A stretch of 21,730 bases of DNA from Pseudomonadota bacterium (GCA_023229365.1 JALNZK010000002.1:318343-340072), one strand, 5' to 3'. Shown: positions 3,672 to 16,260, numbered from the stretch's first letter. Notes: generated by a model not told the origin, from the letters alone. Made by a program: numbers and translations.

Positions 3672-3956
3672 ATGATTAAATTTTTAAAACTAATTACCGG
3701 CGAAGACACATTGGCAGAAGTTACAGAAGAAACCGAATTGCATTATGTTTTAAAGAACCCAATGCGATTTATACCCACCGAACAGGGCATAGGTATAGCC
3801 CCCTTCGCAATGTTTGTGAAAAAGGGCTCTACAATCACAATTGATAAAGATAAGGTTATTTTTGCCGCCGATCCAGAAGATGAAATAGCCAATGTTTATA
3901 ATGAAAAATATGGCTCTGGGATCGTTGTGCCACCCTCAAGCATACAATTACCATGA
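3672..3956 (+). CDS. Hypothetical protein (94 aa)
   Basis: Strong SD (tggaggattacaaATG). The stop overlaps the next start (ATGA). Confidence 0.6.
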   Translation: MIKFLKLITGEDTLAEVTEETELHYVLKNPMRFIPTEQGIGIAPFAMFVKKGSTITIDKDKVIFAADPEDEIANVYNEKYGSGIVVPPSSIQLP

Positions 3957-4543
3957 CAATGCCACATTTAATGAATTGCCCACATTCACCTGATGGGTGG
4001 TGCCTTGATTGCGTCAGTAAACAAGGCAAGCTTTTGCTTGAAATTGACCAAGCCATACAAGACCCGGATAAATTTCTGGCGATGGTTGCTAATCGTGGCC
4101 GACCATTAATCGGCGTTTGCGTTTGCATTTGTCGTCGTGAACCATCCAGCGGCAAAGTTCTTTTGCACAAAAGAAAAGGAAAGCACGCTCCTGGCACATG
4201 GGCATTCCCTGGCGGGCATATGGAAAAATGGGAATCCTTTGAAGGAGTTGTTCGTAGAGAACTAGAAGAAGAAGCAGGGCCAGATATAGAAATTGATAAT
4301 TTGCAATTTTGGACTGTTGCCAATACTCGATTTCATGATGAAGACAAGCATTATGTTGTTCTTTTTATTATGGCTGATTGGGTATCTGGCGAGCCAAAGA
4401 TTATGGAGCCAGAAAAATGTGAATGCTGGGAATGGTTTGATTGGAATGATCTTCCTTCACCACTGATGATGGGGATACAAGATATTGTTGATCGTAAACT
4501 GAGCCCTTTTGACTATGGAGGCGAACACGAAACATTATGCTAG
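3953..4543 (+). CDS. Nudix hydrolase with a Cys-rich N-terminal extension
   Basis: Nudix box GGHMEKWESFEGVVRRELEEEAG (GX5EX7REUXEEXGU). N-terminal CPHSPDGWCLDC cluster. Confidence 0.9.
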   Translation: MTMPHLMNCPHSPDGWCLDCVSKQGKLLLEIDQAIQDPDKFLAMVANRGRPLIGVCVCICRREPSSGKVLLHKRKGKHAPGTWAFPGGHMEKWESFEGVVRRELEEEAGPDIEIDNLQFWTVANTRFHDEDKHYVVLFIMADWVSGEPKIMEPEKCECWEWFDWNDLPSPLMMGIQDIVDRKLSPFDYGGEHETLC

Positions 4544-5109
4544 AAGTAGAAGCTAAATTCATTGTGGATAGTTTTGATTTATTGGAAGCCAAATACCAAT
4601 TTGATGGCCCCGTGTTACAAAGAGATATATATTATCAGCATCCCTCTCGTGATTTTATGAAAACTGGAGAGTGGTTCCGTGTGCGAAGAATTTTTAAGGG
4701 CATTCCCTGTGCGGAAAACCTCGGGTGCGAAGAAATTCATCTGTGTCACAAAGGATCAAATCAAGGCTCATCTGATGTTAAAAGTCGCAGAGAGATAGAA
4801 TTTTCTGTGCCTATGGACATAATTGAACTTTTGCAAATCCTTGATTTTGCAGAATTGATACGAGTGGAAAAATACCGCCGATCAGCCGTGGTTACACCAA
4901 CTAACGATAGTGGCGAACCCACCTTTACCATAACATTAGATGAAGTTTTGGGATTGGGAAAATATGTAGAAATTGAAATGCTGGTTCTCAAAGAAGAATT
5001 TAAAGCAGGAGCAATTGAAGCCATTAATGACATAGCCAAAAAACTGGGACTCACCCAGCCAGAGAAACACGGATATGCTAAATTAATGCTGAAAAAAGAG
5101 AAAAAATGA
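4537..5109 (+). CDS. CYTH-domain protein (triphosphate tunnel metalloenzyme / CyaB-ThTPase family)
   Basis: N-terminal MLEVEAKF carries the ExExK signature. Length and basic/acidic strand pattern fit CYTH. Overlaps its neighbours by 7 nt and 4 nt. Confidence 0.8.
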   Translation: MLEVEAKFIVDSFDLLEAKYQFDGPVLQRDIYYQHPSRDFMKTGEWFRVRRIFKGIPCAENLGCEEIHLCHKGSNQGSSDVKSRREIEFSVPMDIIELLQILDFAELIRVEKYRRSAVVTPTNDSGEPTFTITLDEVLGLGKYVEIEMLVLKEEFKAGAIEAINDIAKKLGLTQPEKHGYAKLMLKKEKK

Positions 5110-5288
5110 TGCCTAATTACGAATATCAGTGCGATACTTGTGAACACAAGTTTGAAATATTTCAACACATGAATGATAAGCCCATTAAAATTTGCCCTAA
5201 GTGCGGCAAAAAAGTCCATCGATTGATTACTGGCGGAACTGGCTTTATTCTTAAAGGAACCGGCTGGACTCCAAAAGGAAATAAATGA
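5106..5288 (+). CDS. FmdB-family zinc-ribbon protein
   Basis: MPNYEYQCDTCEHKFEIFQHMNDKPIKICPKCG matches the (Y/F)EYxCxxC...CPxCG pattern of FmdB-type putative regulatory Zn ribbons. Confidence 0.85.
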   Translation: MMPNYEYQCDTCEHKFEIFQHMNDKPIKICPKCGKKVHRLITGGTGFILKGTGWTPKGNK

Positions 5289-5900: not shown

Positions 5901-6422
5901 CTATCTATTTCGGAATTGCTGACACCAGAAGATTACTCCGCTGGCAGTACGAAAAGCCGCCACACCAATGCGTAGATGACCTGGGTTGAGAATGTTCGCC
6001 CTGTGACCTGACGAATTCATCCAACAATTGACCACATCACTACTGTGCGGTTGTCCCATTGCAATGTTTTCAGCAAGTGGGAGCCTCGTATGCACCATTG
6101 CCTGATTGCGAGTCATCCAGGCAGCGTGCCCTCTGGCGGTCTGCATCAAATCCTTGTCAACCTCGAAAGGCGGAAGACCATATCGTGCCCGCTCTTCGTT
6201 GGTGAATTTAATGATGTTGGCTTCAATTTCGGCAAGCTTCACACCATCAACCACCACTACTTTATCCGCAGCAGTCGGATAATTTGTTATTGCTTCCACT
6301 TCAGTGGTCTGTGCCGTCGTTGGGGCATTATAACTCTGCTGGCGACGACCTCTGCCTCTGGCTTCTGCCACTGAACAAACACACAACACAACAACAAACG
6401 CAAACAATAGATTCAACCTCAT
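5901..6422 (-). CDS. Secreted CAP/SCP/PR-1-like (YkwD-type) protein
   Basis: Signal peptide MRLNLLFAFVVVLCVCSVAEA. CAP-domain motifs NEERARYGLPP, HAAWM, NSSGHRANILNPG. Strong SD (aaggagtatcgtATG). Confidence 0.85.
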   Translation of the reverse strand: MRLNLLFAFVVVLCVCSVAEARGRGRRQQSYNAPTTAQTTEVEAITNYPTAADKVVVVDGVKLAEIEANIIKFTNEERARYGLPPFEVDKDLMQTARGHAAWMTRNQAMVHTRLPLAENIAMGQPHSSDVVNCWMNSSGHRANILNPGHLRIGVAAFRTASGVIFWCQQFRNR

Positions 6423-6484: not shown

Positions 6485-7219
6485 TTAGCTATCGGTTTTG
6501 TGCAATGCATCGTATTCCGCCGATGTTGCTCGCAGAACGGCCCTGTTGTGAACTTCATCGGCATCACAAGAAGCAGAGGTTCTCGATTCGTAATCGGCAT
6601 AGGCTTTGCTTCCAGCCGCCGCAAAAGCCATAGCTTCCATCGTTCTTGCCGATTTGCCGCCTGTGAACTCATTCAACAGCATTAGTTTGGTATCGGCAGC
6701 TTGAGCCACATTAGCCCAGAATTTGCTTCCGCTATTCAGGCATTGCAACGGGAAAACACGGACACCCATTTCTTTGAGGGCAGCCAATTCTTGTCTCCAA
6801 TTCAGCTTGCCTTCATTCTGCGGATAATTAACATCGTGGGGATCAGCATCACCAATCATGACGAAAGCCGCCGCCACACCGGGGGTCCAACCCAAATCCC
6901 TGGCTTCGTGCAAAACCAATTCATAACATTCATCGCAATCGCCACCCGATGTGTCAGGTGCATTGCGAATAAAGTCGAAGATTTTTGCACGATCATTCGT
7001 GAGCTTTAGCACACGGATGCAGTTTTGTCCATCGCAATAATCCCCGTGAGAAATAAATGCCATTTTCAAGCCGGGAATATTTGCAAATAAACCCTCACAG
7101 GTTTCTTCCAGATGTTTGCGAACATCAGCGATACACGGTCGCATGGAACCTGTGGTGTCAAAACTTATGCCAATTTCCGTAGCGTCATCAATTCTTTCGC
7201 CAAGTGTTTGTTCCGCCAT
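6485..7219 (-). CDS. von Willebrand factor A (vWA) domain protein, last gene of the JAB-E1 cassette
   Basis: MIDAS-like DxTxS (ISFDTTGSM), later TSGG and MIGDADPHD. Start moved to the internal ATG at 7219 (MAEQTL...), which has an SD (aagaggaaaaaATG) and avoids overlap with the E1 gene ending at 7233. Confidence 0.8.
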   Translation of the reverse strand: MAEQTLGERIDDATEIGISFDTTGSMRPCIADVRKHLEETCEGLFANIPGLKMAFISHGDYCDGQNCIRVLKLTNDRAKIFDFIRNAPDTSGGDCDECYELVLHEARDLGWTPGVAAAFVMIGDADPHDVNYPQNEGKLNWRQELAALKEMGVRVFPLQCLNSGSKFWANVAQAADTKLMLLNEFTGGKSARTMEAMAFAAAGSKAYADYESRTSASCDADEVHNRAVLRATSAEYDALHKTDS

Positions 7220-7232
7220 TTTTTCCTCTTTT

Positions 7233-7877
7233 CTAGTGCATTGCACTAATGTGTAAGTCACGCAGGGTAATGGACCATGATTGATGCCGTGGCGATGATG
7301 CCAAGAAGAAATCAAGGATTTCCTCTGAGGCTGCCGCTACTGTCAACATGATGATGTTACGAGCCAAGGGATAGTCGCAAACGTCGCCACCGCTGTCCTT
7401 TGGCACCTTGTAGCGATCATCCCATACAACCTCGCCATAATCTTCAAATAATCCAGTGTGCAGACATGGAATCTTCTTTGCCCGGCAATGGGTTTGAACA
7501 ATTTGCCGTGCAGCATTATTATCAAAACAATCCAACACCAATGCTGAGCCACGCAGCATTTTATCCACGGTAGCGGCGGTCAATTCCTTGTCCACGGTGT
7601 CAATTTCAACACCAATGTTGCCAAACACCTTCTGTTTGGCGGCGGCAACTTTCAAAGCTCCAACATCCCGCTCATTCCAAAACTGGGTGTTTAGATTATG
7701 AGTATCGACACGATCTTTGTCAATACCACGGAGATTGGCAAATCCTTGTCGAGAAAGATTGTCAAGCAAATTGCTACCCAGGGCTCCTACACCACAAATG
7801 GTGATTAGACCTTGCAATTTCTTGGCATAATCCTTGCCTCGGTAAATTTCTTCATGATGGAATTTATTCGTTGCCAT
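7233..7877 (-). CDS. ThiF/MoeB/E1-like adenylyltransferase (short, 214 aa)
   Basis: Rossmann Gly loop ICGVGALGSNL. GIDKDRVDTHNLNTQ (compare the ThiF/E1 D.D.V..SNL.RQ pattern). LDCFDNNAARQ. Cys in GGDVCDYP. SD ggaggaagaaaATG. Confidence 0.88.
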   Translation of the reverse strand: MATNKFHHEEIYRGKDYAKKLQGLITICGVGALGSNLLDNLSRQGFANLRGIDKDRVDTHNLNTQFWNERDVGALKVAAAKQKVFGNIGVEIDTVDKELTAATVDKMLRGSALVLDCFDNNAARQIVQTHCRAKKIPCLHTGLFEDYGEVVWDDRYKVPKDSGGDVCDYPLARNIIMLTVAAASEEILDFFLASSPRHQSWSITLRDLHISAMH

Positions 7878-8025
7878 TTTCTTCCTCCACTATTTCGTAA
7901 ACTGTGCCCCAAATCTTATCATGTGGATCGTAACGCATTTGTATATGATTGAAACTGCAATTGTCGGGATTTGGTCGAAATTCAAGCCATGCTTCAAATT
8001 CTGGTATGTAATTTGCCCGCAGCAT
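7864..8025 (-). CDS. Candidate small ORF (53 aa) between the JAB and E1 genes
   Basis: Manual translation: MLRANYIPEFEAWLEFRPNPDNCSFNHIQMRYDPHDKIWGTVYEIVEEENGNE. Overlaps the E1 start by 14 nt. More protein-like than the competing 78-aa frame 7890..8126, which overlaps the JAB 3' end. Neither frame is proven. Confidence 0.3.
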   Translation of the reverse strand: MLRANYIPEFEAWLEFRPNPDNCSFNHIQMRYDPHDKIWGTVYEIVEEENGNE

Positions 8026-8097
8026 AAATATCCAGCAACCCAAATATCTCTATATTTCACCAAATACTGATATTTGGTTTTACCAGTTGTTTTTATT

Positions 8098-8661
8098 TCA
8101 CTTGGGTTTGTCTGTTTCAATTTCATTCGCCACCTCTTCGCTCTCTAGGAGAGCACCCAAATTAATTGCAGAGTCTTGATCCCAATCAATGGCATGCCCC
8201 CCAAGCTCAACCTCTTCATCAAATAATGTCAAGTCATCCTCCACAACGACATTAGGTGTTGCCAAGCCATAGCAAGCCAGTGGCTTTTTGGGTGTAATTC
8301 CTACAATTAGTTGCCCAAAGCTCTTTAGAGTACGAATGGGAATTGGAGGTTGTTCATCGCTGTAATACAAATAACCCTTGAGCCCATTGACTCCTTCGAT
8401 CAAACAAACGAGAGGCTTGCCAAACGACAACACCCACTGTGCCATTGTAGCATCATCCCGTGGGCTTGGGGAGGCGATCATTCCGGGGTGCGTGTGATAA
8501 AACCCAACCACATCCCCATATTTTTCTTCACGATCCATGACCCACTTATATGGAAAATCCACGGAGCCAGGGTGCCCTTCGCTTTCGTGCGAAACATGAC
8601 CCCACCACATTCTCCTGTGATTTCCGCCCGTCAAAATCCACGATTGTTCATTTTGTCTCAT
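8098..8661 (-). CDS. JAB/MPN (JAMM) metalloisopeptidase
   Basis: Complete JAMM motif HTHPGMIASPSPRD (HxHx7Sx2D) with upstream acidic residues. The ATG directly abuts the upstream stop (TAAATG). Confidence 0.9.
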   Translation of the reverse strand: MRQNEQSWILTGGNHRRMWWGHVSHESEGHPGSVDFPYKWVMDREEKYGDVVGFYHTHPGMIASPSPRDDATMAQWVLSFGKPLVCLIEGVNGLKGYLYYSDEQPPIPIRTLKSFGQLIVGITPKKPLACYGLATPNVVVEDDLTLFDEEVELGGHAIDWDQDSAINLGALLESEEVANEIETDKPK

Positions 8662-9177
8662 TTATTTTTCCCTTAGTCGTTTTATTGCTTCTTGACGTTG
8701 TTCTCGGGTTTGTTCTTCTAGTTCTTGAGTAAACAATTTCCCGCTCATGTAATATTCTGTACCCCAAGCTGGGCACATTTTGTGTAATTCAGGACGACCA
8801 CAACCAGGGCACACACAATCTTTTGACTCTTCTATGTCCCAGTCCATTGACTCTACAATTTCTTTCACATTCTCTTCGATAAATTTCTCACAAGCCTCTG
8901 GACCAATAGCTTCTCGCAATGCAGCAAACGGATTGCCTGTCGCTGCCCAGCGTGCCTCTTCTTCTTCCCAACACTCGTTTTGTCCACACTCTTTAACCTG
9001 ATCCCACAACAAAGCAACGGATGGGTGTTTGTCTTCTTCCCAATCACCACGTTCCAAAAATGCACAATAGCCGTCTTCTTGTTCAGCGTGGTCGGGGTGC
9101 TTGCTCCAATAAGGGCAAATGCCATTTGTATCATAGCAATATATTCCCTTCGGAATTAAACTCGGGTCTTTATTCAT
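8662..9177 (-). CDS. Cys/Trp/Glu-rich hypothetical protein (171 aa), probable metal-binding
   Basis: Start set at the ATG at 9177 (MNKDPS...), which forms an ATGA overlap with the GIY-YIG stop. Cys clusters: YCYDTNGICPYW...GYCAF and CVCPGCG...MCPAWG. Confidence 0.6.
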   Translation of the reverse strand: MNKDPSLIPKGIYCYDTNGICPYWSKHPDHAEQEDGYCAFLERGDWEEDKHPSVALLWDQVKECGQNECWEEEEARWAATGNPFAALREAIGPEACEKFIEENVKEIVESMDWDIEESKDCVCPGCGRPELHKMCPAWGTEYYMSGKLFTQELEEQTREQRQEAIKRLREK

Positions 9178-9893
9178 AATGTTTTCTTTTCCAACACTTT
9201 CCAATTTTTGTAATGTGCGATTTTGCCAGCAGCTACACTCCACATATGCCCAGAATTCAAATTGTGTTCCCTTGAAAACTGCTCCAAATTACTTGTCTCG
9301 AATACTTCTCCATCTGGCGATGCTATTTTGTATGCGAATTTCAATTTTTTGTTTCGCATTTTTTCTTTTGACTTATCCGAATACTTTCTTCCTGTGGCTG
9401 ATTTGGCAATTTTGTTTTTGTGTTCCTCTGTAAGCGTTTTGCCAGTGTTAAATAGCGATAACTTCTTTTTTGTTTTATTGCTTACTTTGTGTCCTAAATG
9501 ACTCGATCTAAGCTTTTTAATTGTTGCTTGGGTTACTTTTTTCCCTTTGTTGCCGATGGATATTTTGCGTTTAACCTCCTCAGATATTACGCCTCGGGCA
9601 TTTCCAAGTTTTAAATTATAACCATTTGGAGAAAGGGTTTTTAATTCACAGCCCCAATACACTTCCCTGGCATCTATTTCTTCTTGTGTGCCATTTAATT
9701 TTTCTAACACCACAATCTTAAAATGTTCTGGTCCGTATTTTCGAATGGCAAGGACAATCGGCATTAGTTTGGTGTTATTCCACCTTGCCTCCGCACAGTG
9801 TCTTTTGAACCTTTCTTCTGCCGTTTTCCAAGTTTGCCCAACATAGACCTTTGCATTAAGATCATTTATTATTTTGTATATAATTGCTTCCAT
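9174..9893 (-). CDS. GIY-YIG homing endonuclease (I-TevI/Seg-like) with NUMOD3-type repeats
   Basis: IIYKIINDLNAKVYVGQT (GIY...YIG), R/H/E core, NGYN. C-terminal repeated S.GNKGKK / SSHLGHKVS / NTGKTLTEEHKNKI DNA-binding motifs. Confidence 0.9.
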   Translation of the reverse strand: MEAIIYKIINDLNAKVYVGQTWKTAEERFKRHCAEARWNNTKLMPIVLAIRKYGPEHFKIVVLEKLNGTQEEIDAREVYWGCELKTLSPNGYNLKLGNARGVISEEVKRKISIGNKGKKVTQATIKKLRSSHLGHKVSNKTKKKLSLFNTGKTLTEEHKNKIAKSATGRKYSDKSKEKMRNKKLKFAYKIASPDGEVFETSNLEQFSREHNLNSGHMWSVAAGKIAHYKNWKVLEKKTL

Positions 9894-9945
9894 ACAATTA
9901 TATAGTAGCTTTCTAATTTATTTGCCCACTAATTTCCTTCTTTTC

Positions 9946-10401
9946 TTATAATTTGTCAAATTGGTCTCTGATCTTCATTAGAAGTTTTCCAAGATGGTTT
10001 TCCCCAACTCCGTTGCATACCCCAAAAAACGTGTCGTGCCACCAATTTCCTTCTACTAATTCCGCCTTGCCAGTGGCAAGAAGCTGATTGCATAATTGTG
10101 GATCGGAGAATTTTTGCACAAGCAAATCTTCCATAATCCCTAAATTAATATTTTGCCAATCGGGTCGTTGGTGTCCAGCTTTTTTGAATACAGCCGCAAG
10201 CTTCTTTGCTTTTCCAGGGGTAATAGCGTCTTGAATTTGCTTACGCAATGCCGGGTCTAAAAATTTAGCAGCTTGGTAAGCGTGTTCGGTGGAAATATAT
10301 TTTTCACCATCCAAAACTACCGGCGTGGACAGTATGGCAAAATTCGACAAATACCTGTATTCACCATCAAATGAATCAATTTTTGTTTGCTTGTCATTCA
10401 T
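9946..10401 (-). CDS. NADAR (YbiA/DUF1768) domain protein
   Basis: FDGEYRYLSNF, YISTEHAYQAAKF, GNWWHDTFFG and GENHLGKLLMKIR match the NADAR signature. Confidence 0.88.
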   Translation of the reverse strand: MNDKQTKIDSFDGEYRYLSNFAILSTPVVLDGEKYISTEHAYQAAKFLDPALRKQIQDAITPGKAKKLAAVFKKAGHQRPDWQNINLGIMEDLLVQKFSDPQLCNQLLATGKAELVEGNWWHDTFFGVCNGVGENHLGKLLMKIRDQFDKL

Positions 10402-10634
10402 TTTTTCTTTTCTTTCTTTTCAAGCTTTTTCAATGAATGTGCCAAATCCATTGAATTTGTTACTTTTCTCACTCCCTTTTTAAATTGTTTCAATTCTTCA
10501 CGCAACCGAATCACTTCTGCCTCCATGACCTGTGCTTTGCAACCATAGTCATACAAAACACCAGCGGTTGGCTCTGCCTTATTGACAGCATTCCAAAACT
10601 TGCGGGAGGCATTTCCAGAAAATATTTTTTTCAT
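10398..10634 (-). CDS. Hypothetical coiled-coil protein (~78 aa)
   Basis: Start placed at the ATG at 10634 (TAATG coupling to the upstream stop) rather than 10649. Lys-rich C-terminus. Confidence 0.5.
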   Translation of the reverse strand: MKKIFSGNASRKFWNAVNKAEPTAGVLYDYGCKAQVMEAEVIRLREELKQFKKGVRKVTNSMDLAHSLKKLEKKEKKK

Positions 10635-11122
10635 TACATTTCTGTCCACGATTTCAAAGGTGGTGCTACCAACATCTTTACAAACATCATGATTGTTCCG
10701 TAGACCACATCATCCTTGGTGAAATTAAATCTTTTCATTGCCTCATCATTCACCCATTCCATCAAGGAAGTGGCCCTTTCCTCGGAACGGGTCTTCCAAT
10801 CACACACCAACTCGGCAAGATAAATGCGGGGCATTCCTTTAATTCCGCCATCCCAATATTCTGGGTGGTGTTTATTCGTATGATTGTGCTGCATAATAGC
10901 GAGTTTCAAGGCAGCCTTATCTGGATTCTCTATTGATAAATGATCCCATTCAGCACCAAAAAACTTGCTATTATCGTGAAGAAAAGAATTTGCCACCAGC
11001 GTTTTGGCAAGCTTAAACTCTCCATTCTCCATCAGTCTTTCAGCAAGAATTACGCAATTCTCCTGAACACCGTGAATGTGCCGCATCAGTTTTTGAATAC
11101 GATCAATATCACGCTGACTCAT
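10634..11122 (-). CDS. HD-motif protein (putative metal-dependent phosphohydrolase-like; resembles phage DUF5662-type proteins from memory)
   Basis: H...HD pattern (HIHGV...FLHDNSKF), HNHTNKHHPEYW, AELVCDW. Start at 11122 preferred (ATGA coupling with the upstream 50-aa ORF); 11170 is the alternative. Confidence 0.5.
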   Translation of the reverse strand: MSQRDIDRIQKLMRHIHGVQENCVILAERLMENGEFKLAKTLVANSFLHDNSKFFGAEWDHLSIENPDKAALKLAIMQHNHTNKHHPEYWDGGIKGMPRIYLAELVCDWKTRSEERATSLMEWVNDEAMKRFNFTKDDVVYGTIMMFVKMLVAPPLKSWTEM

Positions 11123-11271
11123 TTCTTTTCTTGCTCCTTTTGCTTCTGTTCGATAATATAATTTCGACACCTTTCCAGTGCTTGATAATAAAGCAATTGG
11201 GAAAGTGGATCAACAGTATCTTGCAGACCTTTTGCACAAGCCAATTCGTGATTGTATTCTATTTCAGTCAT
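11119..11271 (-). CDS. Possible small ORF (50 aa)
   Basis: Manual translation: MTEIEYNHELACAKGLQDTVDPLSQLLYYQALERCRNYIIEQKQKEQEKK. It fills the gap between 11278 and 11122 with an ATGA overlap. Confidence 0.35.
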   Translation of the reverse strand: MTEIEYNHELACAKGLQDTVDPLSQLLYYQALERCRNYIIEQKQKEQEKK

Positions 11272-11277
11272 GATTTA

Positions 11278-12225
11278 CTAATCGTCGTCGTCGTCGTCGT
11301 AATCGTGCTCTGGCTCGTTGCCACGATTATGGCCGTATTGATTCCAATACCACGTATCACGACCAGAGGTATCTACAATATGGTCACGGCGGTGTCCCTC
11401 TCGGATAACACCTACTAGACTTTGAAGATCAAAGTTACGGTCATAGCCCGACAAACAAATACCAGCAGAAATTACTGATAAAGTTTTTTTGTCAACAACT
11501 GAACGATGAGGGTTTCCATCGATTTGATATTCAATAGTGAAACTGTCTCCACGCTCAATGTGGCTTTTATAATCAGCACCAGCACGCTCTAGGGCAACTT
11601 TGATACGATTGCCTGCCTGTGCCATCTTGGCTTCTTCGCTGGCTTCATAGGCGACCTTATAAGCGATTTGGTATGCATCCAATTCTTGCTTGGAAACAAT
11701 ATCCAAATCCAGCTTCTCTGGCTTGGCCAATGTAGTCAACATTTCTCGCAAATATGCTCCGCTTTTCGGACTTTTGCGAGGGTCTACTTCATCAAACCAA
11801 CAAATCTGTCCATCGAAACGAGCACAAACAGTATCAAACAATTGCACTTCCTCAGACAAATAAATCGGCACGGACCCAGAAATGTTAAATCTGGCATCTG
11901 CCTGAGCAAGGGTTCCATACCACAAATCTTTATTTTGATGGTGCAAAATAAATTTCATAGTAGGAAACAATGCCAAGTATTGTCTTCGCTCCATCATGGA
12001 CGGGGCACGCACATGTTTGGCCAAACGACGGGTGGTAGGCTTGAAAACACCCCAACCCTGAAAATTCACAGGCACTACACGCATTTCCATCACAATGCCA
12101 GAAATACGAACTCTGACCGCTCGCCCCTTGAGCACAGGGGACAAAAACTCTGATTGAAGGAATTGATCTTCCTCAGCGGCGAGCTTATCGATCAGACTGT
12201 GAATATTCGTTTTCTTTTTTTTCAT
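11278..12225 (-). CDS. Hypothetical protein (315 aa) with a C-terminal hexa-Asp tail
   Basis: Start set at the ATG at 12225 (MKKKKTNIHS), directly after the upstream stop (TAACATG). Ends ...EHDYDDDDDD. No motif recognised. Confidence 0.7.
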   Translation of the reverse strand: MKKKKTNIHSLIDKLAAEEDQFLQSEFLSPVLKGRAVRVRISGIVMEMRVVPVNFQGWGVFKPTTRRLAKHVRAPSMMERRQYLALFPTMKFILHHQNKDLWYGTLAQADARFNISGSVPIYLSEEVQLFDTVCARFDGQICWFDEVDPRKSPKSGAYLREMLTTLAKPEKLDLDIVSKQELDAYQIAYKVAYEASEEAKMAQAGNRIKVALERAGADYKSHIERGDSFTIEYQIDGNPHRSVVDKKTLSVISAGICLSGYDRNFDLQSLVGVIREGHRRDHIVDTSGRDTWYWNQYGHNRGNEPEHDYDDDDDD

Positions 12226-12226
12226 G

Positions 12227-12610
12227 TTATTCGATAGCTTCTGTCTGCCCGCTGCCGTTTTTTCCTGCGTCCCAGCCCGCTCCATTGATTTCTTTGGGTG
12301 AATGCAGATGAATTGTCATCGTTAAATAGTAACTTGTGGCAATAGTTCCTTCCATCCACACTTTTTCATTTTCCCTGACATCAAAAACAAATTTTACATT
12401 GTCTGCACACACCGGGTAAGTGTGCATTTTCCCATTAATTAGGAAGGAATATCGGGATGGCTCATGCATCAAAACACGGTCAATGTTTTTTAATTTGCTA
12501 TAATGCGGCTCAGGAGAGCATCCGGCAAGGAGCAAAACAAAAAATAAAAACCATTTCAAATGAATTAACCAGGACATTTTCTGAAATCTCCGTAAGAACA
12601 TTCTCCGCAC
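12227..12610 (-). CDS. Putative lipoprotein
   Basis: Hydrophobic signal followed by the lipobox LLLAGC|S (WFLFFVLLLAGCSPE). The start is ambiguous (12610 or 12577). Confidence 0.7.
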   Translation of the reverse strand: MRRMFLRRFQKMSWLIHLKWFLFFVLLLAGCSPEPHYSKLKNIDRVLMHEPSRYSFLINGKMHTYPVCADNVKFVFDVRENEKVWMEGTIATSYYLTMTIHLHSPKEINGAGWDAGKNGSGQTEAIE

Positions 12611-12816: not shown

Positions 12817-13038
12817 TTTTTCTCTTTCTTGTCCATCTAAATTTCTTTCCCGCCAACCTCTTTATCCGACCTGCATCAATGTAAGACTGTGATAAGTAGA
12901 CATTGGGGCTTTCAATTCGGGGCTATCGCCCTTCCACCCTGTTCACGACCGCTTTAACTCAGTATAGCGATTTCAACATTGCTACTTATTATTTTGTACC
13001 CTTTCACGGATTTTTGTTTCTGCACAGTCTCTATAACC

Positions 13039-13066: not shown

Positions 13067-13097
13067 TAAGAAAAGCCCTGGGGACAATCCCCAGGGC
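13066..13097 (-). terminator. Rho-independent terminator after the Ro60-like gene
   Basis: 10-bp stem gccctgggga(13075-13084)/tccccagggc(13088-13097), 3-nt loop, then ttttcttattt on the minus strand. It lies 26 nt past the stop at 13123. Confidence 0.7.
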
Positions 13098-13122: not shown

Positions 13123-14691
13123 CTACGCAACTTTTCTCTTCGGCAAAGGCCAACTCATGATTTCCATGAGCAAGTCAAGCTTACTGGGCTTGCACAGGAA
13201 TTTCACCAGTCCAGGCAAGCTGTAGTAGTCGCCGGTAAATTGCCAAGCGTCTACTTCGATGCCTTTGACTCGACCTTCTTGCTCCAATTGATCCGTAGCA
13301 TTAGGAGTCTTGACAATGCAAATGTTGGGGAATGCATTCAAGGCTTGACAGTATTTTTGATAAATGTCAAAGAACTTGGGAGCAGTATTTTCCCCTTCAT
13401 CCGTTACCAAAATGATCTGTTCGACCATGTATTTCTTTTGTAGCATAAACTGCAAGCCAACGCCGCAGGAAGTCCAACCGCTTGCACGGATGCCTTCAAA
13501 TGCTTTCTCCCAAGCTGCCAAGTCTTTTCCTTGGCTAGTGATGGGATAGGCGATTGTATCTTGAGCATACGCATACAAAGGAACACCATCCTCCATAACC
13601 GTAGACAATAGGGAGCCAATTCGCTTGCCCAATTCAATGGTAGCGGCTTGAGAACCCGACTTGTCCACAAACAAAGCCGTGGGGCGACTGATACGACCCT
13701 TGGACTTAATTTGTTGGTCAGCAACGGCTTCCAATTGTTGCTTTACTTCATCCGAAACTCCAGGTGCCGCCTTGACGGCTTCCAAGGATTTCAATGCAGC
13801 CATTCGCTTATCGCCCTTGGCCACAACAAGTTTTTCCTCAATCAATTGCTTGAGATCGGGGTTGTCGAACACGCCACGCTTTTTCAAGCTGCCGATGCTG
13901 TTGACCAACTCTTGCGAAGTCATTACTTCCAACAAAGCCGCAATAACAGGCGGTGTCATGGATTCGATTACCGTACTGGCAATCCGGTACGGAATTTTAT
14001 TTTCCACGATCACTCGGGCTTGGTCAGTCGGTGAAGTTGCCTTGGCCAACTCCTTGATTAGGAACGCTTTGGAATCAGCAGGCGGCTTATCATCGAACAA
14101 CACGGCTTGAGCCCGGTCGGTCGGCTTGCGGTGTCCGAAAGCATACAAACTCTTCATATATTTTCGAGCACCAACGCAGACACTATCGAACCAATCTTTA
14201 TCCAATTCTCGCTCTTGCAGATAACGATTGATTTCCGTCATTACGGAATTGGGCAATTGTCGGAACAAGCCCGTTTTGACTTTCTTGGCAGGAGCAGCCG
14301 GTTGTGCCGGTGCGGCAGCAACTCTACGACCCCGAACCATGCGTGCGGGTGCCGGTGCGGCAGCCTTCGGCTTTCGTTCGGTGATATAGTTGCCCAAAAT
14401 GAACTTCAATACCCGTGTCAATTGATAGGGCGGAAGCTCACGCAACATGGCCAAACCAACTTCTCGGTGCCCGTCAAACTTGGACAGACACAAAGAAATA
14501 ATAAACATTTCTTTGTGGTCACGAATTTCGCCGGTATCATTATACCAAGCCGCCAATTGCGAATAGAACCGAGGATCATCGGTAATCATTCGCTGGTGTT
14601 CTGGATAAATAGCGGCCAGATCACGGTGAGGCGTGGTCAATAGAGTGTTGAGAATTCGGAGTCGCACATCTTGTTCGGTATTTTCGTTCAT
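13123..14691 (-). CDS. Ro60/Rsr-like protein: helical-repeat (TROVE-like) N-terminal region plus C-terminal vWA domain (522 aa)
   Basis: C-terminal vWA with MIDAS FVDKSGSQ (DxSxS), ASGWTSCG and ILVTDEGEN, in the same order as human Ro60 VDVSASM / GGTDCS / IVFTDNET (recalled). The N-terminal helical segments RDHKEMFIISLCLS and REVGLAMLRELPPYQLTRVLKFI parallel Ro60 KQEPMLFALAICSQ and [24 protein letters not shown]. Total length is close to Ro60 (~540 aa). Start moved to 14691 (MNENTEQ, SD aaagggatatgaaATG) because the ATG at 14727 lies inside a structured RNA element. Ala/Pro/Arg-rich insert KPKAAAPAPARMVRGRRVAAAPAQPAAPAKK. Confidence 0.65.
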   Translation of the reverse strand: MNENTEQDVRLRILNTLLTTPHRDLAAIYPEHQRMITDDPRFYSQLAAWYNDTGEIRDHKEMFIISLCLSKFDGHREVGLAMLRELPPYQLTRVLKFILGNYITERKPKAAAPAPARMVRGRRVAAAPAQPAAPAKKVKTGLFRQLPNSVMTEINRYLQERELDKDWFDSVCVGARKYMKSLYAFGHRKPTDRAQAVLFDDKPPADSKAFLIKELAKATSPTDQARVIVENKIPYRIASTVIESMTPPVIAALLEVMTSQELVNSIGSLKKRGVFDNPDLKQLIEEKLVVAKGDKRMAALKSLEAVKAAPGVSDEVKQQLEAVADQQIKSKGRISRPTALFVDKSGSQAATIELGKRIGSLLSTVMEDGVPLYAYAQDTIAYPITSQGKDLAAWEKAFEGIRASGWTSCGVGLQFMLQKKYMVEQIILVTDEGENTAPKFFDIYQKYCQALNAFPNICIVKTPNATDQLEQEGRVKGIEVDAWQFTGDYYSLPGLVKFLCKPSKLDLLMEIMSWPLPKRKVA

Positions 14692-14716
14692 TTCATATCC
14701 CTTTCTAAATAAAAAT

Positions 14717-14797
14717 AGCCCATCCAAGTCTGGTCAGCTTTGATTGGAAACGATATGGAAGTTTCTGTTTGTAAGCTGGGCCGGTATGGGATGGGCT
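14717..14797 (-). ncRNA. Y-RNA-like module 0 (minimal: conserved stem motif closed by a ~35-nt insert, no tRNA-like domain)
   Basis: 9-bp terminal stem agcccatcc/ggatgggct. Carries both conserved strands (minus sense 5' ..CCCAUACC..CAGCUUACAAACAG and 3' GCUGACCAGACUUGGAUGGG). Followed on the minus strand by AUUUUUAUUU. Confidence 0.55.
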
Positions 14798-14815
14798 TGT
14801 TCTGTTGTTTTGTTT

Positions 14816-15046
14816 TTAGCCGAAAACTGCCTCCGGTCGGAGTGTAAGGGTGTTAGTTTCACCATTACGATCAACAGCAAAAGCCCGTAGCTTCCCTTGA
14901 GGGATGCCTAGCCAATCGGCGGCAGCATTGCGGATATCGGCATCCGAGCTATTGTCGCCAATATTCAGTTCCGCCAAGGGAACGTCGTAAGACCTTCCTT
15001 CGACTCGAACGTGCAGCATGTTTTCAAGTTGGTTTTCGTTGTCCAT
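14816..15046 (-). CDS. Small beta-grasp/ubiquitin-like candidate (76 aa) ending in Gly
   Basis: Strong SD (aaggagaaattacgATG) and its own promoter. Ubiquitin size. Predicted strand-strand-helix-strand pattern (MLHVRVEGRSYDVPL / SDADIRNAAADWLGI / LTLRPEAVFG). The terminal residue is Gly, directly before the stop. Confidence 0.4.
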   Translation of the reverse strand: MDNENQLENMLHVRVEGRSYDVPLAELNIGDNSSDADIRNAAADWLGIPQGKLRAFAVDRNGETNTLTLRPEAVFG

Positions 15047-15117: not shown

Positions 15118-15127
15118 CAAGAAAAAA

Positions 15128-15253
15128 TCCGTCCAAGTTACAAAAACTGTTTTTGGTAAACAATGCAGGAATTGAACCAGCATTCTTCAGTTTTCAAGAC
15201 TGACGCTCAACCATTGAGCTAATTGTTTGTAAGTTTTAGTGGTATGGGACGGA
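15128..15253 (-). ncRNA. Y-RNA-like module 1: conserved stem motif flanking a complete tRNA
   Basis: Terminal stem tccgtcc(15128-15134)/ggacgga(15247-15253). The conserved 5' and 3' motif strands bracket the tRNA at 15154-15228. Confidence 0.6.
15154..15228 (-). tRNA. tRNA or tRNA-like, anticodon UGA, class I (short variable arm), CCA encoded
   Basis: Minus sense: AAACAAT-TA-GCTC-AATGGTT-GAGC-G-TCAGT-CTTGAAA-ACTGA-AGAAT-GCTGG-TTCAATT-CCTGC-ATTGTTT-A-CCA. U8, A14, G18G19, U33 and the T-loop TTCAA are present. One T-stem mismatch. A Ser-type anticodon without the long variable arm is anomalous. Confidence 0.55.
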
Positions 15254-15256
15254 AAG

Positions 15257-15385
15257 TGGAGGGTGTTGGATTCGAACCAACATTTTTTCGTTTTCAGTGA
15301 AAAAAGTTACCTTTTGTTTGTATGTCTCTCAGGTGTGGGACAATTGCTTGTCCAAGTTTGGGAAACTGAACGTTTTTAACCCTCC
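15257..15385 (-). ncRNA. tRNA-like RNA (anticodon loop CUGAAAA, GAA/Phe-type) with the conserved stem-loop inserted in the D-loop (module 2)
   Basis: 7-bp acceptor GGAGGGT/ACCCTCC. T arm GTTGG-TTCGAAT-CCAAC. Anticodon arm present. The D region is replaced by ...GTTCAGTT[motif hairpin, loop AGCAAUU]...AAGGTAAC. No CCA. Confidence 0.55.
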
Positions 15386-15743: not shown

Positions 15744-15902
15744 CATAAGGCAAACATTTGATCGTCCAAGTCGAAGAAACTGTTTTTTGCAACAATGTTG
15801 GATTCGCACCAACTACCGAAACTTTATGGAAGTTTTGCTCTACTGATGAGCTAATTGTTTGTAAGTTCCGTCAGTATGGGACGATCAAATGTTTGCCTTA
15901 TG
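15744..15902 (-). ncRNA. Y-RNA-like module 5: 24-bp perfect terminal stem plus conserved motif flanking a degenerate tRNA-like domain (CAU loop)
   Basis: cataaggcaaacatttgatcgtcc(15744-15767) is the exact reverse complement of 15879-15902. The inner tRNA-like domain (15789-15860) has a D-loop ATCAGTA lacking GG, anticodon loop UCCAUAA (C33) and T-loop TGCGAAT. Confidence 0.6.
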
Positions 15903-15913: not shown

Positions 15914-16090
15914 GACGCAAGCAAGTGTTGGCCCGTCCAAGTCGAAAAAGCTGTTTCACATAGTGACAGTTTAATAGACTGTTGCCTTTACCATTAGGCT
16001 AAAACACATTTTGGCGTGTTTGTTGGATTCGAACCAACAGATTGTTTGTAAGCTCTGTCTGTGTGGGACGAGCAAACACTTGCCTGCGTC
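15914..16090 (-). ncRNA. Y-RNA-like module 6 with a circularly permuted tRNA-like domain
   Basis: Long imperfect terminal stem 15914-15938/16066-16090. Minus-sense order: motif 5' strand, T arm (GTTGG-TTCGAAT-CCAAC, 16022-16038), loop-capped helix AAACAC/GTGTTT (16002-16021), D-like arm with GG (15984-15999), ACAGT-CTATTAA-ACTGT (15966-15982), motif 3' strand. Confidence 0.6.
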
Positions 16091-16092: not shown

Positions 16093-16260
16093 CATCATCA
16101 AGCTTCCGTCTGTCCAAGTTGAAGAAGCTGTTCAACTTTTGACAGTTCCAATTACTGGTGCCTGACCGTTAGGCTACATTCCTTGCGGAATGATGGGAGT
16201 CGAACCCACTTATTTGTTTGTAAGCTCCGTCTGTATGGGACAGACGGAAGCTTGATGATG
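16093..16260 (-). ncRNA. Y-RNA-like module 7 with a circularly permuted tRNA-like domain and a GNRA-capped acceptor-like helix
   Basis: 23-bp perfect terminal stem 16093-16115/16238-16260. T arm 16193-16209. CATTCC-GCAA-GGAATG hairpin 16177-16192. D-like GCCT-AACGGTC-AGGC 16160-16174. CAGT-AATTGGA-ACTG 16143-16157. Confidence 0.6.

What the first reader, a model, noticed from the sequence alone, without database searches (positions are those of the whole stretch)
6485..9177. Phage-encoded JAB/JAMM peptidase, ThiF/E1-like enzyme and vWA protein in one translationally coupled cassette
The cassette runs in this order: a 171-aa Cys-rich protein, a JAMM peptidase with an intact HxHx7Sx2D motif, a small ORF, a 214-aa E1-like adenylyltransferase with complete nucleotide-binding motifs, and a vWA protein with MIDAS. 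Stop/start abutment or overlap is seen directly at the Cys-rich/JAB junction and, if the 53-aa ORF is real, at the small ORF/E1 junction; the E1 and vWA genes are separated by 13 nt. E1+JAB pairs define prokaryotic ubiquitin-like conjugation/deconjugation modules, including CBASS Cap2/Cap3, Bil-type antiphage operons and PRTRC cassettes. Here the pair is on the phage side, has no recognisable E2, and is joined to a vWA domain, a combination that echoes the proteasomal Rpn10/Rpn11 pairing. Possible roles are modification of virion or host proteins, or reversal of host Ubl-based defence (a JAB enzyme could remove Ubl from tail fibres).
Basis: partly seen in the sequence, partly recalled or inferred. 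Interest (0 to 1): 0.82.

Follow-up and report, generated by a model that had tools for sequence, protein, structure and literature searches.

The report
Ubiquitin-like system wired to Ro60

Summary
The ORFs, motifs and gene junctions are as described, on the minus strand. The cassette boundaries are wrong. Across 24 huge-phage loci and 67 bacterial loci, the E1-like gene (7233-7877) travels in fixed order with four partners:
- a 76-aa beta-grasp protein ending in an invariant Gly (14816-15046);
- tandem copies of a ~150-nt covarying Y-RNA-like/tRNA-like RNA;
- a Ro60-like TROVE+vWA protein (13123-14691);
- a ~290-aa OB-fold protein with one invariant Cys (11278-12285).

The module is not phage-only: 569 bacterial genome matches, mainly Planctomycetota and Cyanobacteria among the 80 best examined.

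Best reading: a Ubl activation/processing arm dedicated to a Ro60-Y-RNA-type ribonucleoprotein. The chemistry (protein conjugation versus sulfur carrier) is inferred, not shown. I found no description of this combination in the searchable literature.

The parts
16104..16249 (-). Y-RNA-like/tRNA-like structured RNA, copy 1: a long closing stem plus T-arm-like and D-arm-like hairpins
   Evidence: 28-nt inverted repeat, 96% complementary. Fold z-score -7.05. Rfam YrlA match below threshold (27.7 bits, E 0.029). Model R1 146.6 bits, but this copy is one of the sequences the model was built from.
15927..16077 (-). Y-RNA-like structured RNA, copy 2
   Evidence: R1 162 bits; this copy is a seed of the model. 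36-nt inverted arms. Compensatory changes against the other copies.
15756..15890 (-). Y-RNA-like structured RNA, copy 3. It encloses the ARAGORN 'tRNA-Met' (15789-15860) within a 24-bp perfect stem.
   Evidence: R1 112 bits; this copy is a seed of the model.
15123..15258 (-). Y-RNA-like structured RNA, copy 4. It encloses the ARAGORN 'tRNA-Ser' (15154-15228).
   Evidence: R1 55.7 bits, E 7e-12; this copy was not used to build the model. tRNA call.
14816..15046 (-). Ubl: 76-aa beta-grasp protein ending ...TLRPEAVFG-stop
14714..14800 (-). Short copy of the structured RNA, between the Ubl and Ro60-like genes
   Evidence: R1 39.5 bits, E 1.4e-7. It overlaps the alternative TTG start at 14727, which favours the ATG at 14691 as the real start.
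13123..14691 (-). Ro60-like TROVE + vWA protein (522 aa) with MIDAS motif DKSGS
   Evidence: Family profile hits human Ro60 9nen (E 4e-6), Thermus phage phiLo Ro60 9l5y/9kop (1.2e-4) and D. radiodurans Rsr 2nvo (0.036). D343, S345, S347, T407 and D431 invariant. Found in 28 phage and 68 bacterial ORF hits in conserved order.
11278..12285 (-). 'p335': conserved OB-fold protein with invariant Cys277 (AGICLxGxDxxFDL) and a disordered acidic tail
9174..9893 (-). GIY-YIG homing endonuclease: an insertion inside the module, not part of it
   Evidence: Pfam GIY-YIG 2.6e-8 and PHROG homing endonuclease 2e-30. Absent from relatives.
8662..9177 (-). Cys-rich 171-aa ORF: lineage-specific, function unknown, not part of the conserved module
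   Evidence: No family hit. No counterpart in 108 related loci. Only a 35%-coverage match in one other huge phage, deposited as two records, LR756501.1 and LR756503.1. No PDB match.
8098..8661 (-). JAB/JAMM metallopeptidase (187 aa; core about 130 aa plus an acidic C-terminal extension)
   Evidence: Prok-JAB 34.4 bits against cutoff 25. E5, H56, H58, S66 and D69 invariant. Present in 23/24 phage and 25/67 bacterial loci. Its presence tracks Ubl tails (Fisher p 0.0016).
7864..8025 (-). 53-aa ORF overlapping the E1 start by 14 nt: unverified, lineage-specific
   Evidence: Called by a gene finder on the sister contig. No homologue in any related locus. In relatives, JAB and E1 abut or overlap directly.
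7233..7877 (-). E1-like (ThiF-fold) adenylating enzyme, 214 aa, with invariant Cys167 in DxCDYPLAR
   Evidence: Pfam ThiF 5.3e-27. 1148 homologues. Invariant residues. Profile against PDB: Uba1/SAE2 1.6e-16, TcdA 3e-14, MoeB 2e-13, Cap2 7e-7, all over residues 4-151 only.
6485..7219 (-). Stand-alone VWA_4-type vWA protein (244 aa) with complete MIDAS: a recurrent accessory of the module
   Evidence: 1650 homologues; 26/30 match VWA_4. VWA_4 proteins lie inside the module in L036, L046, L049, L058, L069 and L026.

Best explanation
The JAB peptidase and the E1-like enzyme are the enzymatic arm of a conserved multi-gene ribonucleoprotein module. They are not a free-standing JAB/E1/vWA cassette. 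The module order is: [Y-RNA-like RNAs] - Ubl - [Y-RNA-like RNAs] - Ro60-like TROVE/vWA - (VWA_4 accessory) - OB-fold Cys protein - (JAB) - E1. In this window the module spans about 6485-16249 on the minus strand. It has been pulled apart by insertions: a lipoprotein-like ORF, DUF5662, NADAR, a GIY-YIG homing endonuclease, the Cys-rich ORF and the 53-aa ORF.

Proposed mechanism:
1. (Inferred) The E1 adenylates the invariant C-terminal Gly of the 76-aa beta-grasp protein.
2. (Inferred) The activated Ubl passes to the invariant E1 Cys167 and/or to Cys277 of the OB-fold protein. That protein is translationally coupled to E1 and would act as a non-UBC carrier or as the acceptor.
3. (Inferred) The Ubl ends on a lysine of the Ro60-like particle or of RNA-bound clients, so that Ubl modification controls an RNA-surveillance particle.
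4. (Supported by correlation) JAB removes residues encoded after the Gly, and probably also reverses the modification.

Shown here: gene content, gene order, co-conservation, intact catalytic motifs, the beta-grasp and OB folds, and a real RNA structure.
Not shown here: any chemical step or any target.

The confidence of 0.5 is for the whole statement. Membership of the conserved module alone I put at about 0.9, and protein conjugation as the chemistry at about 0.45.
For: Module conservation:
- Iterative HMM searches over 28 phage loci find the Ubl in 22, the TROVE protein in 28, p335 in 28, JAB in 27 and E1 in 30, always collinear. Six loci hold them in a compact block of about 4 kb.
- The same order occurs in 80 bacterial loci, drawn from 569 genome matches.

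Ubl:
- Invariant terminal Gly in the motif T(L/V)RPxAx(F/Y/W)G.
- Predicted beta-grasp fold.

JAB:
- 9 of 30 JAB-containing loci encode Ubl tails after the Gly, against 0 of 27 loci lacking JAB (p 0.0016).
- The JAMM motif is invariant.

E1:
- The adenylation-domain motifs and C167 are invariant.
- The profile is at least as close to Ub/SUMO E1s as to MoeB/ThiF.
- It falls below every ThiF/MoeB equivalog cutoff.

p335:
- Cys277 is invariant.
- It abuts E1 wherever JAB is absent (median gap 41 nt). Where JAB is present, JAB fills the gap.
- In L080 and L103 the genes run Ubl-p335-(JAB)-E1 with no TROVE gene in between.

Ro60 identity.

RNA:
- 133 matches to model R1, 132 of them on the module strand.
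- 71 of the 72 strongest lie next to the Ubl or TROVE genes.
- 90.6% of cells are paired, against 60% in shuffles and 32-41% with slid partners. 31 of 32 pairs show changes on both sides.
Against: - No target lysine has been identified.
- E1-like enzymes also serve sulfur transfer and RNA modification (MoeB, ThiF, Uba4 and TcdA are all within E 1e-12 to 1e-14).
- JAB is absent from 42 of 67 bacterial loci, so reversal of the modification is not obligatory.
- The Ro60 assignment rests on moderate profile E-values (4e-6). The RNA does not reach the Rfam YrlA gathering score (27.7 against 69 bits).
- The Ubl model comes from a shallow alignment (12 sequences, pLDDT 79).
- The covariation was counted on an alignment fitted to the model.
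- The locus counts are not phylogenetically independent.
Confidence: 0.5

Rival explanations
1. Sulfur-carrier system. The E1 adenylates the Ubl, which is converted to a C-terminal thiocarboxylate. That donates sulfur for thiolation of the adjacent tRNA-like RNAs or of tRNAs, as in TtuB/TtuC, Urm1/Uba4 or SAMP2/UbaA. JAB exposes the Gly, as Mec+/CysO and QbsD/QbsE do.
For: - The E1 profile matches Uba4 (3e-13), MoeB (2e-13) and ThiF (7.5e-12).
- The best NCBIfam names are ThiF/MoeB.
- The module is packed with tRNA-like RNAs carrying T-arm-like hairpins.
- JAB-plus-E1-plus-Ubl sulfur-carrier operons are known (Iyer 2006, PMC1779556, Table 1 rows 4a-4c).
Against: - The Ubl ends in aromatic-Gly, never Gly-Gly. 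Characterised sulfur carriers end in GG (from my own knowledge).
- Clustering of all ORFs found no rhodanese, cysteine desulfurase or PP-loop thiolase among the conserved module genes.
- The E1 lacks a rhodanese fusion and scores far below every ThiF/MoeB/UbaA cutoff.
- p335 has no PP-loop signature and no Pfam match.
Confidence: 0.17
2. This is a phage counter-defence cassette in which JAB strips host Ubl conjugates (Bil, CBASS) from phage proteins, and E1 plus vWA modify virion or host proteins in an Rpn10/Rpn11-like pairing.
For: - JAB is nearly universal in the phage versions (23/24) but present in only 25/67 bacterial ones (p 4e-7).
- The window neighbourhood holds plausible anti-defence genes (NADAR, NUDIX, CYTH).
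- E1 and JAB give weak hits to CBASS Cap2/Cap3 models.
- Homologues of the 244-aa vWA elsewhere are fused to ubiquitin, UQ_con and WWE domains.
Against: - The module brings its own Ubl and is chromosomal in 569 bacterial genomes with the same gene order.
- The vWA244, Cys-rich and small ORFs are not co-conserved.
- JAB presence tracks tails on the module's own Ubl.
- The Ubl, TROVE, p335 and vWA proteins have no PADLOC match.
Confidence: 0.1
3. The E1-like enzyme acts on RNA rather than on the Ubl, in the way TcdA uses ATP to cyclise t6A on tRNA. It would modify a nucleoside in the tRNA-like RNAs. The small beta-grasp protein would then be a structural or RNA-binding subunit of the particle.
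For: - TcdA is among the better PDB matches (3e-14).
- The RNAs are tRNA-like, and bacterial YrlA RNAs are known to carry tRNA-type modifications (PMC4201824).
- No E2 was found.
Against: - The invariant C-terminal Gly, the variable post-Gly tails and their link to an active JAMM peptidase are the signature of a C-terminally activated Ubl.
- The JAB/E1 pairing has no role in this scheme.
Confidence: 0.08
4. The proximity is incidental: two unrelated units (a Ro60/Y-RNA locus and a Ubl/E1/JAB locus) that merely lie near each other in a variable genomic island.
For: - In the window the two halves are separated by about 2.6 kb of unrelated insertions.
- In several cyanobacterial loci only p335 and E1 were detected within the fetched span.
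Against: - Order and orientation are kept from phages to Planctomycetota, Cyanobacteria, Acidobacteriota, Chloroflexota and Armatimonadota, with E1 identity down to about 40%.
- The Ubl gene lies on the Ro60 side, flanked by the RNAs, while its presumptive E1 lies on the far side of p335. The 'two units' are therefore interleaved.
Confidence: 0.05

Closest known systems
Bil (BilABCD) and type II CBASS Cap2/Cap3 bacterial Ubl-conjugation systems
   Same: - A beta-grasp Ubl or Ubl-like C-terminus ending in Gly.
- A ThiF-fold E1 with a conserved Cys.
- A JAMM peptidase that processes or deconjugates.
- Operon organisation.
   Different: - No UBC-type E2.
- The E1 is a 214-aa stand-alone protein, not an E1-E2 fusion.
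- No CD-NTase or effector.
- The conserved partners are instead a Ro60-like protein, an OB-fold Cys protein and structured RNAs.
- JAB is optional.
- The non-E1/JAB parts have no PADLOC match.
Ro60 (Rsr)-Y RNA/YrlA ribonucleoproteins, including Thermus phage phiLo Ro60 with its two upstream Yrl RNAs (PMC12135203)
   Same: - A TROVE HEAT ring plus a vWA domain with MIDAS.
- Tandem structured RNAs encoded just upstream on the same strand, each with a long 5'/3' stem and a tRNA-like module.
- Also present in large phages.
   Different: - The sequence match to Ro60 is distant (E 4e-6).
- The RNA does not reach the Rfam YrlA threshold (27.7 against 69 bits).
- None of the Ro60 papers I could search mentions a Ubl, E1, JAB or OB-fold/Cys partner.
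- No RtcB or PNPase gene was seen in the loci examined.
Dual-function Ubl systems tied to tRNA: archaeal SAMP2/UbaA/JAMM1, Thermus TtuB/TtuC and eukaryotic Urm1/Uba4 (from my own knowledge)
   Same: - A minimal E1-like enzyme, a small beta-grasp protein and a JAMM peptidase.
- No E2.
- A functional link to tRNA-type RNA.
   Different: - Those Ubls end in Gly-Gly and work with rhodanese or desulfurase and PP-loop thiolases, none of which is in this module.
- The UbaA model scores 58 bits against a cutoff of 450.
ATG8/ATG12-ATG7 and UFM1-UBA5 (from my own knowledge; not tested here)
   Same: - Ubl C-termini of the aromatic- or hydrophobic-Gly type, with short tails removed by a dedicated protease.
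- E1s of the homodimeric, non-canonical type.
- UBA5 is matched at 7.7e-12.
   Different: - Those pathways have recognisable, if divergent, E2s (ATG3, ATG10, UFC1) and cysteine-protease processing enzymes rather than JAMM.
- There is no evidence of homology beyond the shared fold.
Rea1 MIDAS-Ytm1/Rsa4 UBL interaction in ribosome biogenesis
   Same: - A MIDAS-containing vWA-type domain that uses a UBL domain as its ligand on an RNP.
   Different: - It is a non-covalent interaction mediated by a conserved UBL glutamate. The equivalent position here (RP-E/Q/D/N/M-A) is not conserved.
- This is an analogy only.

Membership tests
JAMM/MPN+ metallopeptidase (Prok-JAB) | Catalytic motif E...HxHx7Sx2D, and a Pfam score above the gathering cutoff | tested here: met
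   Prok-JAB 34.4 bits against cutoff 25. E5, H56, H58, S66 and D69 invariant in 23 sequences.
E1-like/ThiF-fold adenylating enzymes (superfamily) | ThiF Rossmann-type domain with GxGxxG and the conserved Asp, Arg and Lys residues | tested here: met
   Pfam ThiF 94.9 bits against cutoff 28.1. G29, G31, G34, D53, D55, K76, D116 and D119 invariant.
ThiF / MoeB sulfur-carrier adenylyltransferases (equivalogs) | Score above the NCBIfam equivalog cutoff | tested here: not met
   TIGR02356 88.9 against 275; PRK08644 74.7 against 159; TIGR02355 54.8 against 377.
ThiF / MoeB sulfur-carrier adenylyltransferases (equivalogs) | Partner Ubl ending in Gly-Gly, and a thiamine, molybdopterin or cysteine biosynthesis gene context | tested here: not met
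   The Ubl ends F/Y/W-Gly in all 57 loci where the C-terminal motif could be read. The neighbours are TROVE, an OB-fold protein and RNAs.
Bil (BilABCD) Ubl conjugation system | Ubl, E1 and JAB genes present in one operon | tested here: met
Bil (BilABCD) Ubl conjugation system | A UBC-fold E2 (BilB) | tested here: not met
Type II CBASS (Cap2/Cap3) | An E1-E2 fusion (Cap2) together with a CD-NTase and an effector | tested here: not met
   The E1 is 214 aa with only the adenylation domain aligned to Cap2 models. No CD-NTase was found among the window ORFs scanned.
PRTRC system | PRTRC ThiF-family protein scoring above the TIGR03736 cutoff | tested here: not met
   32 bits against a cutoff of 144.75.
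Ro60/TROVE-vWA proteins | Detectable homology over the TROVE repeats and the vWA domain, with MIDAS motif DxSxS...T...D | tested here: met
   The family profile hits human Ro60 at E 4e-6 over profile positions 204-455, phiLo Ro60 at 1.2e-4 and Rsr at 0.036. MIDAS residues are invariant. No Pfam TROVE hit for the single sequence. One relative has a weak vWA_Ro60 hit.
Ro60/TROVE-vWA proteins | Binds an adjacent Y RNA | not testable with these tools
   Only the adjacency and conservation of a structured RNA are shown.
Rfam YrlA (RF02553) Y RNA-like | Score at or above the gathering threshold of 69 bits | tested here: not met
   27.7 bits, E 0.029, at 16160-16209. The architecture (long stem plus tRNA-like module next to a TROVE gene) is the same.
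von Willebrand A domain (for the 244-aa ORF) | Pfam vWA model above cutoff, and MIDAS residues | tested here: inconclusive
   The ORF's own score is 17.9 bits against 27. Even so, 26 of 30 homologues match VWA_4, and the MIDAS residues D21, T23, S25, T90 and D124 are conserved. The profile found no PDB match.
Ubiquitin-like beta-grasp modifiers (for the 76-aa ORF) | Beta-grasp fold, an exposed or processable C-terminal Gly, and a cognate E1 | tested here: met
Ubiquitin-like beta-grasp modifiers (for the 76-aa ORF) | Covalent attachment to a target | not testable with these tools
   Requires biochemistry or mass spectrometry.

The most novel reading that the evidence does not exclude
This would be a previously undescribed, E2-less ubiquitin-like modification pathway built into a Ro60-Y-RNA-type ribonucleoprotein and shared by huge phages and several bacterial phyla. 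The OB-fold protein would be a new, non-UBC cysteine carrier or RNA-guided substrate adaptor. The Ro60-like MIDAS domain would be the docking or acceptor site. Ubl tagging would then be directed by RNA recognition: either the surveillance particle or RNA-bound clients are marked. An even more radical version is that the activated Gly is transferred onto RNA itself.
Probability: 0.3. Interest if true: 0.9.

Novelty: new variant of a known kind. Interest (0 to 1): 0.78.

Why it matters
- **Ro60 biology.** Ro60 and its Y RNAs are conserved from bacteria to humans, yet the role of the Ro60 MIDAS site and the way Ro60 particles are regulated remain unclear. A hard-wired genetic link to a Ubl, an E1 and a deconjugating peptidase gives a concrete hypothesis that can be tested in culturable cyanobacteria and planctomycetes.
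- **Prokaryotic ubiquitin-like systems.** The module adds a widespread family: 569 bacterial genome matches, and 1148 E1 and 678 p335 homologues in metagenome protein sets. It has no recognisable E2 but has a conserved cysteine protein and dedicated RNAs. Known systems (Bil, CBASS, Bub, SAMP, Pup) do not have this design.
- **Phage biology.** Huge phages carry the complete module almost always with the peptidase. That suggests they import a host RNA-surveillance or translation-stress device, or use it against RNA-targeting defences.

Tried and rejected
- **E2 or RING identity of the Cys-rich ORF and the 53-aa ORF.** No hit in Pfam, PHROGs, NCBIfam, PADLOC or PDB, and no homologues in related loci. 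They are rejected as module members, but their function is unknown.
- **PDB profile search for p335.** Only a spurious repeat hit.
- **The afdb50 fold library.** It was not available.
- **A single-sequence scan of viral contigs with the E1.** It gave one locus. The alignment-based scan was needed.
- **vWA244 relatives.** The nearest homologue lies on a 1.3-kb contig and gives no context.
- **Literature.** Seven full-text searches found no paper linking TROVE/Ro60 with ThiF, Ubl or JAB; an eighth, on tRNA arrays in cyanobacteria, found nothing relevant either. Burroughs and Aravind (NAR 2016, RNA-repair systems) and the 2020 Annual Review on bacterial Ro60 are not held, so prior description there cannot be excluded.
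- **An NJ tree of the E1s.** Phage sequences form a few blocks between two bacterial groups. The tree is too crude to infer the direction of transfer.

Full report
**1. Observation**

An independent gene caller finds them on the sister contig L002.
- The sequence shows the Cys-rich TAA directly followed by the JAB ATG.
- The 53-aa ORF and the E1 gene overlap by 14 nt.
- A 13-nt spacer containing AGAGGA separates the E1 and vWA genes.
- Pfam places the 187-aa protein in Prok-JAB (34.4 bits, cutoff 25) and the 214-aa protein in ThiF (94.9 bits, cutoff 28.1).
- The 244-aa protein is below the VWA_4 cutoff on its own. It belongs to a family of 1650 detectable homologues, of which 26 of 30 sampled match VWA_4. 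Its MIDAS residues are conserved.

The description is therefore accurate. What fails is the assumption that these five genes form one unit.

**2. Source of the window**

- The E1 protein is identical to one on a 340-kb contig that NCBI labels as a Proteobacteria MAG.
- Its closest catalogued relative is the 595-kb 'uncultured phage' LR756511.1 (64% identity).
- Further relatives lie on IMG/VR contigs of 120-570 kb.
- The window carries two homing endonucleases and collagen-like Gly-X-Y fibre genes.
- A huge-phage origin is likely but was not proven inside the window.

**3. The real unit**

I fetched 28 related phage loci and called all ORFs. I then ran iterative HMM searches seeded with each window protein.
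- The Cys-rich ORF, the 53-aa ORF, the 244-aa vWA, DUF5662, the GIY-YIG gene and two small neighbouring ORFs were found only in the window and its duplicate. NADAR turned up in three further loci, but about 9 kb downstream of E1 and outside the module.
- Four other families travel with the E1 in every lineage and always in the same order: the 76-aa ORF at 14816-15046, the 522-aa ORF at 13123-14691, the 335-aa ORF at 11278-12285, and JAB.
- In six loci (for example L009, L015, L017) the five genes form a contiguous block of about 4 kb, with JAB and E1 overlapping.
- The window is thus an expanded version. Mobile and accessory genes have been inserted between the 335-aa gene and JAB, and between JAB and E1.

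**4. The 76-aa protein is a Ubl**

- Its family has an invariant C-terminal Gly in the motif T(L/V)RPxAx(F/Y/W)G.
- Most members stop exactly at that Gly. Others continue with IA, K, KS, RG, GH, KIET, F, SI, C, GV or a hydrophobic segment of about 25 aa.
- Sequence methods find nothing.
- An AlphaFold2 model (pLDDT 79) has beta-beta-alpha-beta-beta order.

**5. JAB**

- The JAMM residues, including the N-terminal Glu, are invariant.
- Across 57 loci where both features could be scored, all nine Ubls with post-Gly residues lie in JAB-containing loci. None of the 27 loci lacking JAB has a tail (one-sided Fisher p 0.0016, not corrected for phylogeny).
- This supports precursor trimming as one JAB role.
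- The 21 JAB-containing loci whose Ubl already ends in Gly imply a second role, most simply deconjugation.

**6. E1**

- The nucleotide-binding and catalytic residues are invariant, and so is C167 in DxCDYPLAR.
- A family profile matches Ub/SUMO E1s (1.6e-16), a bacterial ThiF-type protein 9egb (4e-16), TcdA (3e-14), MoeB and Uba4 (about 2e-13), ThiF and UBA5 (about 8e-12) and Cap2 (7e-7). All matches cover residues 4-151 only.
- It is far below all NCBIfam equivalog cutoffs, including PRTRC and UbaA.
- It is therefore an E1-like enzyme of its own family. Sequence does not settle its chemistry.

**7. The 522-aa protein**

- Its family profile hits human Ro60 (E 4e-6), the Thermus phage phiLo Ro60 (1.2e-4) and Deinococcus Rsr (0.036). 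The matches span part of the TROVE repeats and the vWA domain.
- The MIDAS residues are invariant.
- In one phage (L005) an intein sits inside the MIDAS motif, a position typical of functionally critical sites.

**8. The RNAs**

- Upstream of the Ubl gene on the same strand, the window has three adjacent elements. Each is closed by a 24-36-nt stem and encloses T-arm-like and D-arm-like hairpins.
- One of them gives a sub-threshold Rfam YrlA hit.
- The ARAGORN 'tRNA-Met' and 'tRNA-Ser' each lie inside such an element.
- I built a covariance model from the three window copies plus one from L009. It found 133 matches at E <= 0.01 in 1.03 Mb of phage and bacterial loci, 132 of them on the module strand.
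- Of the 72 matches at E <= 1e-5 (in 37 loci), 71 lie within 2.5 kb upstream of the Ubl, between the Ubl and TROVE genes, or between the TROVE and p335 genes.
- On their alignment, 90.6% of cells pair, against 59.9% in shuffles and 32-41% with slid partners. 31 of 32 pairs show double-sided changes. The caveat is that the alignment is fitted to the model.
- This is the design of bacterial and phage Y RNAs encoded next to Ro60 (PMC4201824; PMC12135203). The family does not reach the YrlA threshold.

**9. The 335-aa protein (p335)**

- It has 678 homologues, none with a name or a Pfam domain.
- The model (pLDDT 86) shows an N-terminal helix, two beta-barrels, a long helix, a four-stranded meander, the invariant Cys277 and a final helix, followed by a disordered acidic/aromatic tail.
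- The AGICL motif made me test an E2 relationship. Pfam on 58 members and hhalign against four E2s were both negative.
- Genetically it is the tightest partner of E1. Where JAB is absent the two genes abut (median gap 41 nt; 25 of 43 within 100 nt). Where JAB is present it fills the gap.
- In L080 and L103 the genes run Ubl-p335-(JAB)-E1 without an intervening TROVE gene.

**10. The module is not phage-specific**

- An alignment-based scan of one genome per species found 569 matches.
- The 80 best are mostly Planctomycetota and Cyanobacteria, including the complete Acaryochloris marina and Nostoc linckia chromosomes. Acidobacteriota, Chloroflexota and Armatimonadota are also represented.
- They have the same gene order and the same RNAs.
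- JAB is present in 23 of 24 phage loci but only 25 of 67 bacterial loci.
- A VWA_4-type stand-alone vWA protein related to the window's 244-aa ORF lies between the TROVE and p335 genes in five bacterial loci, and between p335 and JAB in phage L026.
- In L036 a CAP-domain gene follows E1, as it does in the window.

**11. Mechanism**

The shown facts are these:
- a C-terminally processable beta-grasp protein;
- an intact E1;
- an intact JAMM peptidase whose presence tracks Ubl tails;
- an RNA-binding-type protein with an invariant Cys coupled to E1;
- a Ro60-like MIDAS protein;
- dedicated structured RNAs.

They best fit a Ubl activation-and-transfer pathway that acts on or through a Ro60-type RNP.

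The aromatic-Gly terminus and the absence of rhodanese, desulfurase or PP-loop genes argue against a pure sulfur-carrier role, but do not exclude it. Which residue receives the Ubl, whether Cys277 is a carrier, and what the particle does for phage or host are all inferences.

**12. Comparison and novelty**

- Each component class is known: Ubl/E1/JAB operons (Iyer 2006) and the Bil and CBASS systems on one side, Ro60/Y RNA in bacteria and phages on the other.
- In the searchable literature I found no description of their combination, of the OB-fold/Cys protein, or of the Ubl family.
- PADLOC holds no model for the non-enzymatic parts.
- A preprint on 'Nidhogg' viruses lists a Ro60 gene and three ThiF genes in one genome without connecting them.
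- I therefore rate this a new variant of known kinds rather than categorically new, with high interest.

Noticed in passing
L005:566-3271 (587-kb phage contig): The Ro60-like gene carries a LAGLIDADG intein inserted exactly inside the MIDAS motif (DK|C...HN|SGS). This implies that the MIDAS site is functionally critical.
   Followed up: partly
L004:9898-16550; L007:9442-16265; L008: In one phage lineage the module is followed by a 915-aa protein with major-vault-protein shoulder and repeat domains (Pfam 5.7e-15), three ORFs of about 320-370 aa, and a second, shorter ThiF-fold gene (227-229 aa). A TROVE protein plus an MVP-like protein recalls the components of the eukaryotic vault particle.
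   Followed up: partly
L064:2660-2742; L106:6839-6894: Inside the bacterial modules there are short sequences that score above the Rfam gathering threshold as 23S rRNA positions ~1077-1160 (the GTPase-associated centre, by my own knowledge of 23S numbering). They lie on the module strand. They may be rRNA-fragment mimics.
   Followed up: no
L064:1672-2872; L085:79-1206; L105:439-868: Arrays of up to 12 high-scoring tRNA genes lie on the module strand next to the Ubl gene in Armatimonadota, Acidobacteriota and Acaryochloris.
   Followed up: no
window 15789-15860 and 15154-15228 (minus strand): The two ARAGORN/Rfam tRNA calls (Met-CAT, Ser-TGA) lie inside R1 RNA elements closed by long stems. 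They may be tRNA-like modules of Y-type RNAs rather than free tRNAs. Further sub-threshold tRNA-like hits lie at 15265-15319, 15403-15448 and 15903-16008.
   Followed up: partly
window 9174-9893 (-), 3102-3635 (+): Two homing endonuclease genes, one GIY-YIG and one LAGLIDADG. The GIY-YIG gene sits inside the module, and its stop overlaps the start of the Cys-rich ORF (ATGA).
   Followed up: partly
window 9946-10401 (-), 10634-11170 (-), 3953-4543 (+), 4537-5109 (+), 5106-5288 (+): NADAR (1.3e-22), DUF5662 (1.6e-20), NUDIX, CYTH and a Zn-ribbon protein lie around the module. They may be nucleotide- or ADP-ribose-related accessory genes.
   Followed up: no
window 5901-6422 (-): A CAP/SCP-domain protein with a signal-peptide-like N-terminus lies directly downstream of the vWA gene. 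A CAP-domain gene also follows the E1 in Gemmataceae locus L036 (9267-10058).
   Followed up: partly
window 16892-19240 (+) and 19763-21680 (+): Gly-X-Y collagen-like repeats (SGY/ISGYSG; 9-, 18- and 33-nt periods) occur in a 782-aa fibre-like ORF and in a second long repeat tract. The listed 492-aa ORF at 19770-21248 looks like an out-of-frame reading of that second tract.
   Followed up: partly
homologues of window 6485-7219: Distant homologues of the 244-aa VWA_4 protein are fused elsewhere to ubiquitin, UQ_con (E2), WWE and WD40 domains. This hints at a broader link between this vWA family and ubiquitin systems.
   Followed up: no
L007:3543-3968; protein P0247: Some Ubl precursors carry a hydrophobic, transmembrane-like tail of about 25 residues after the terminal Gly. 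This suggests membrane tethering until JAB cleaves the precursor.
   Followed up: no
window 12227-12610 (-): A 127-aa ORF with a lipoprotein-like signal (LLAGC) lies between the Ro60-like and p335 genes. It is specific to this phage.
   Followed up: no
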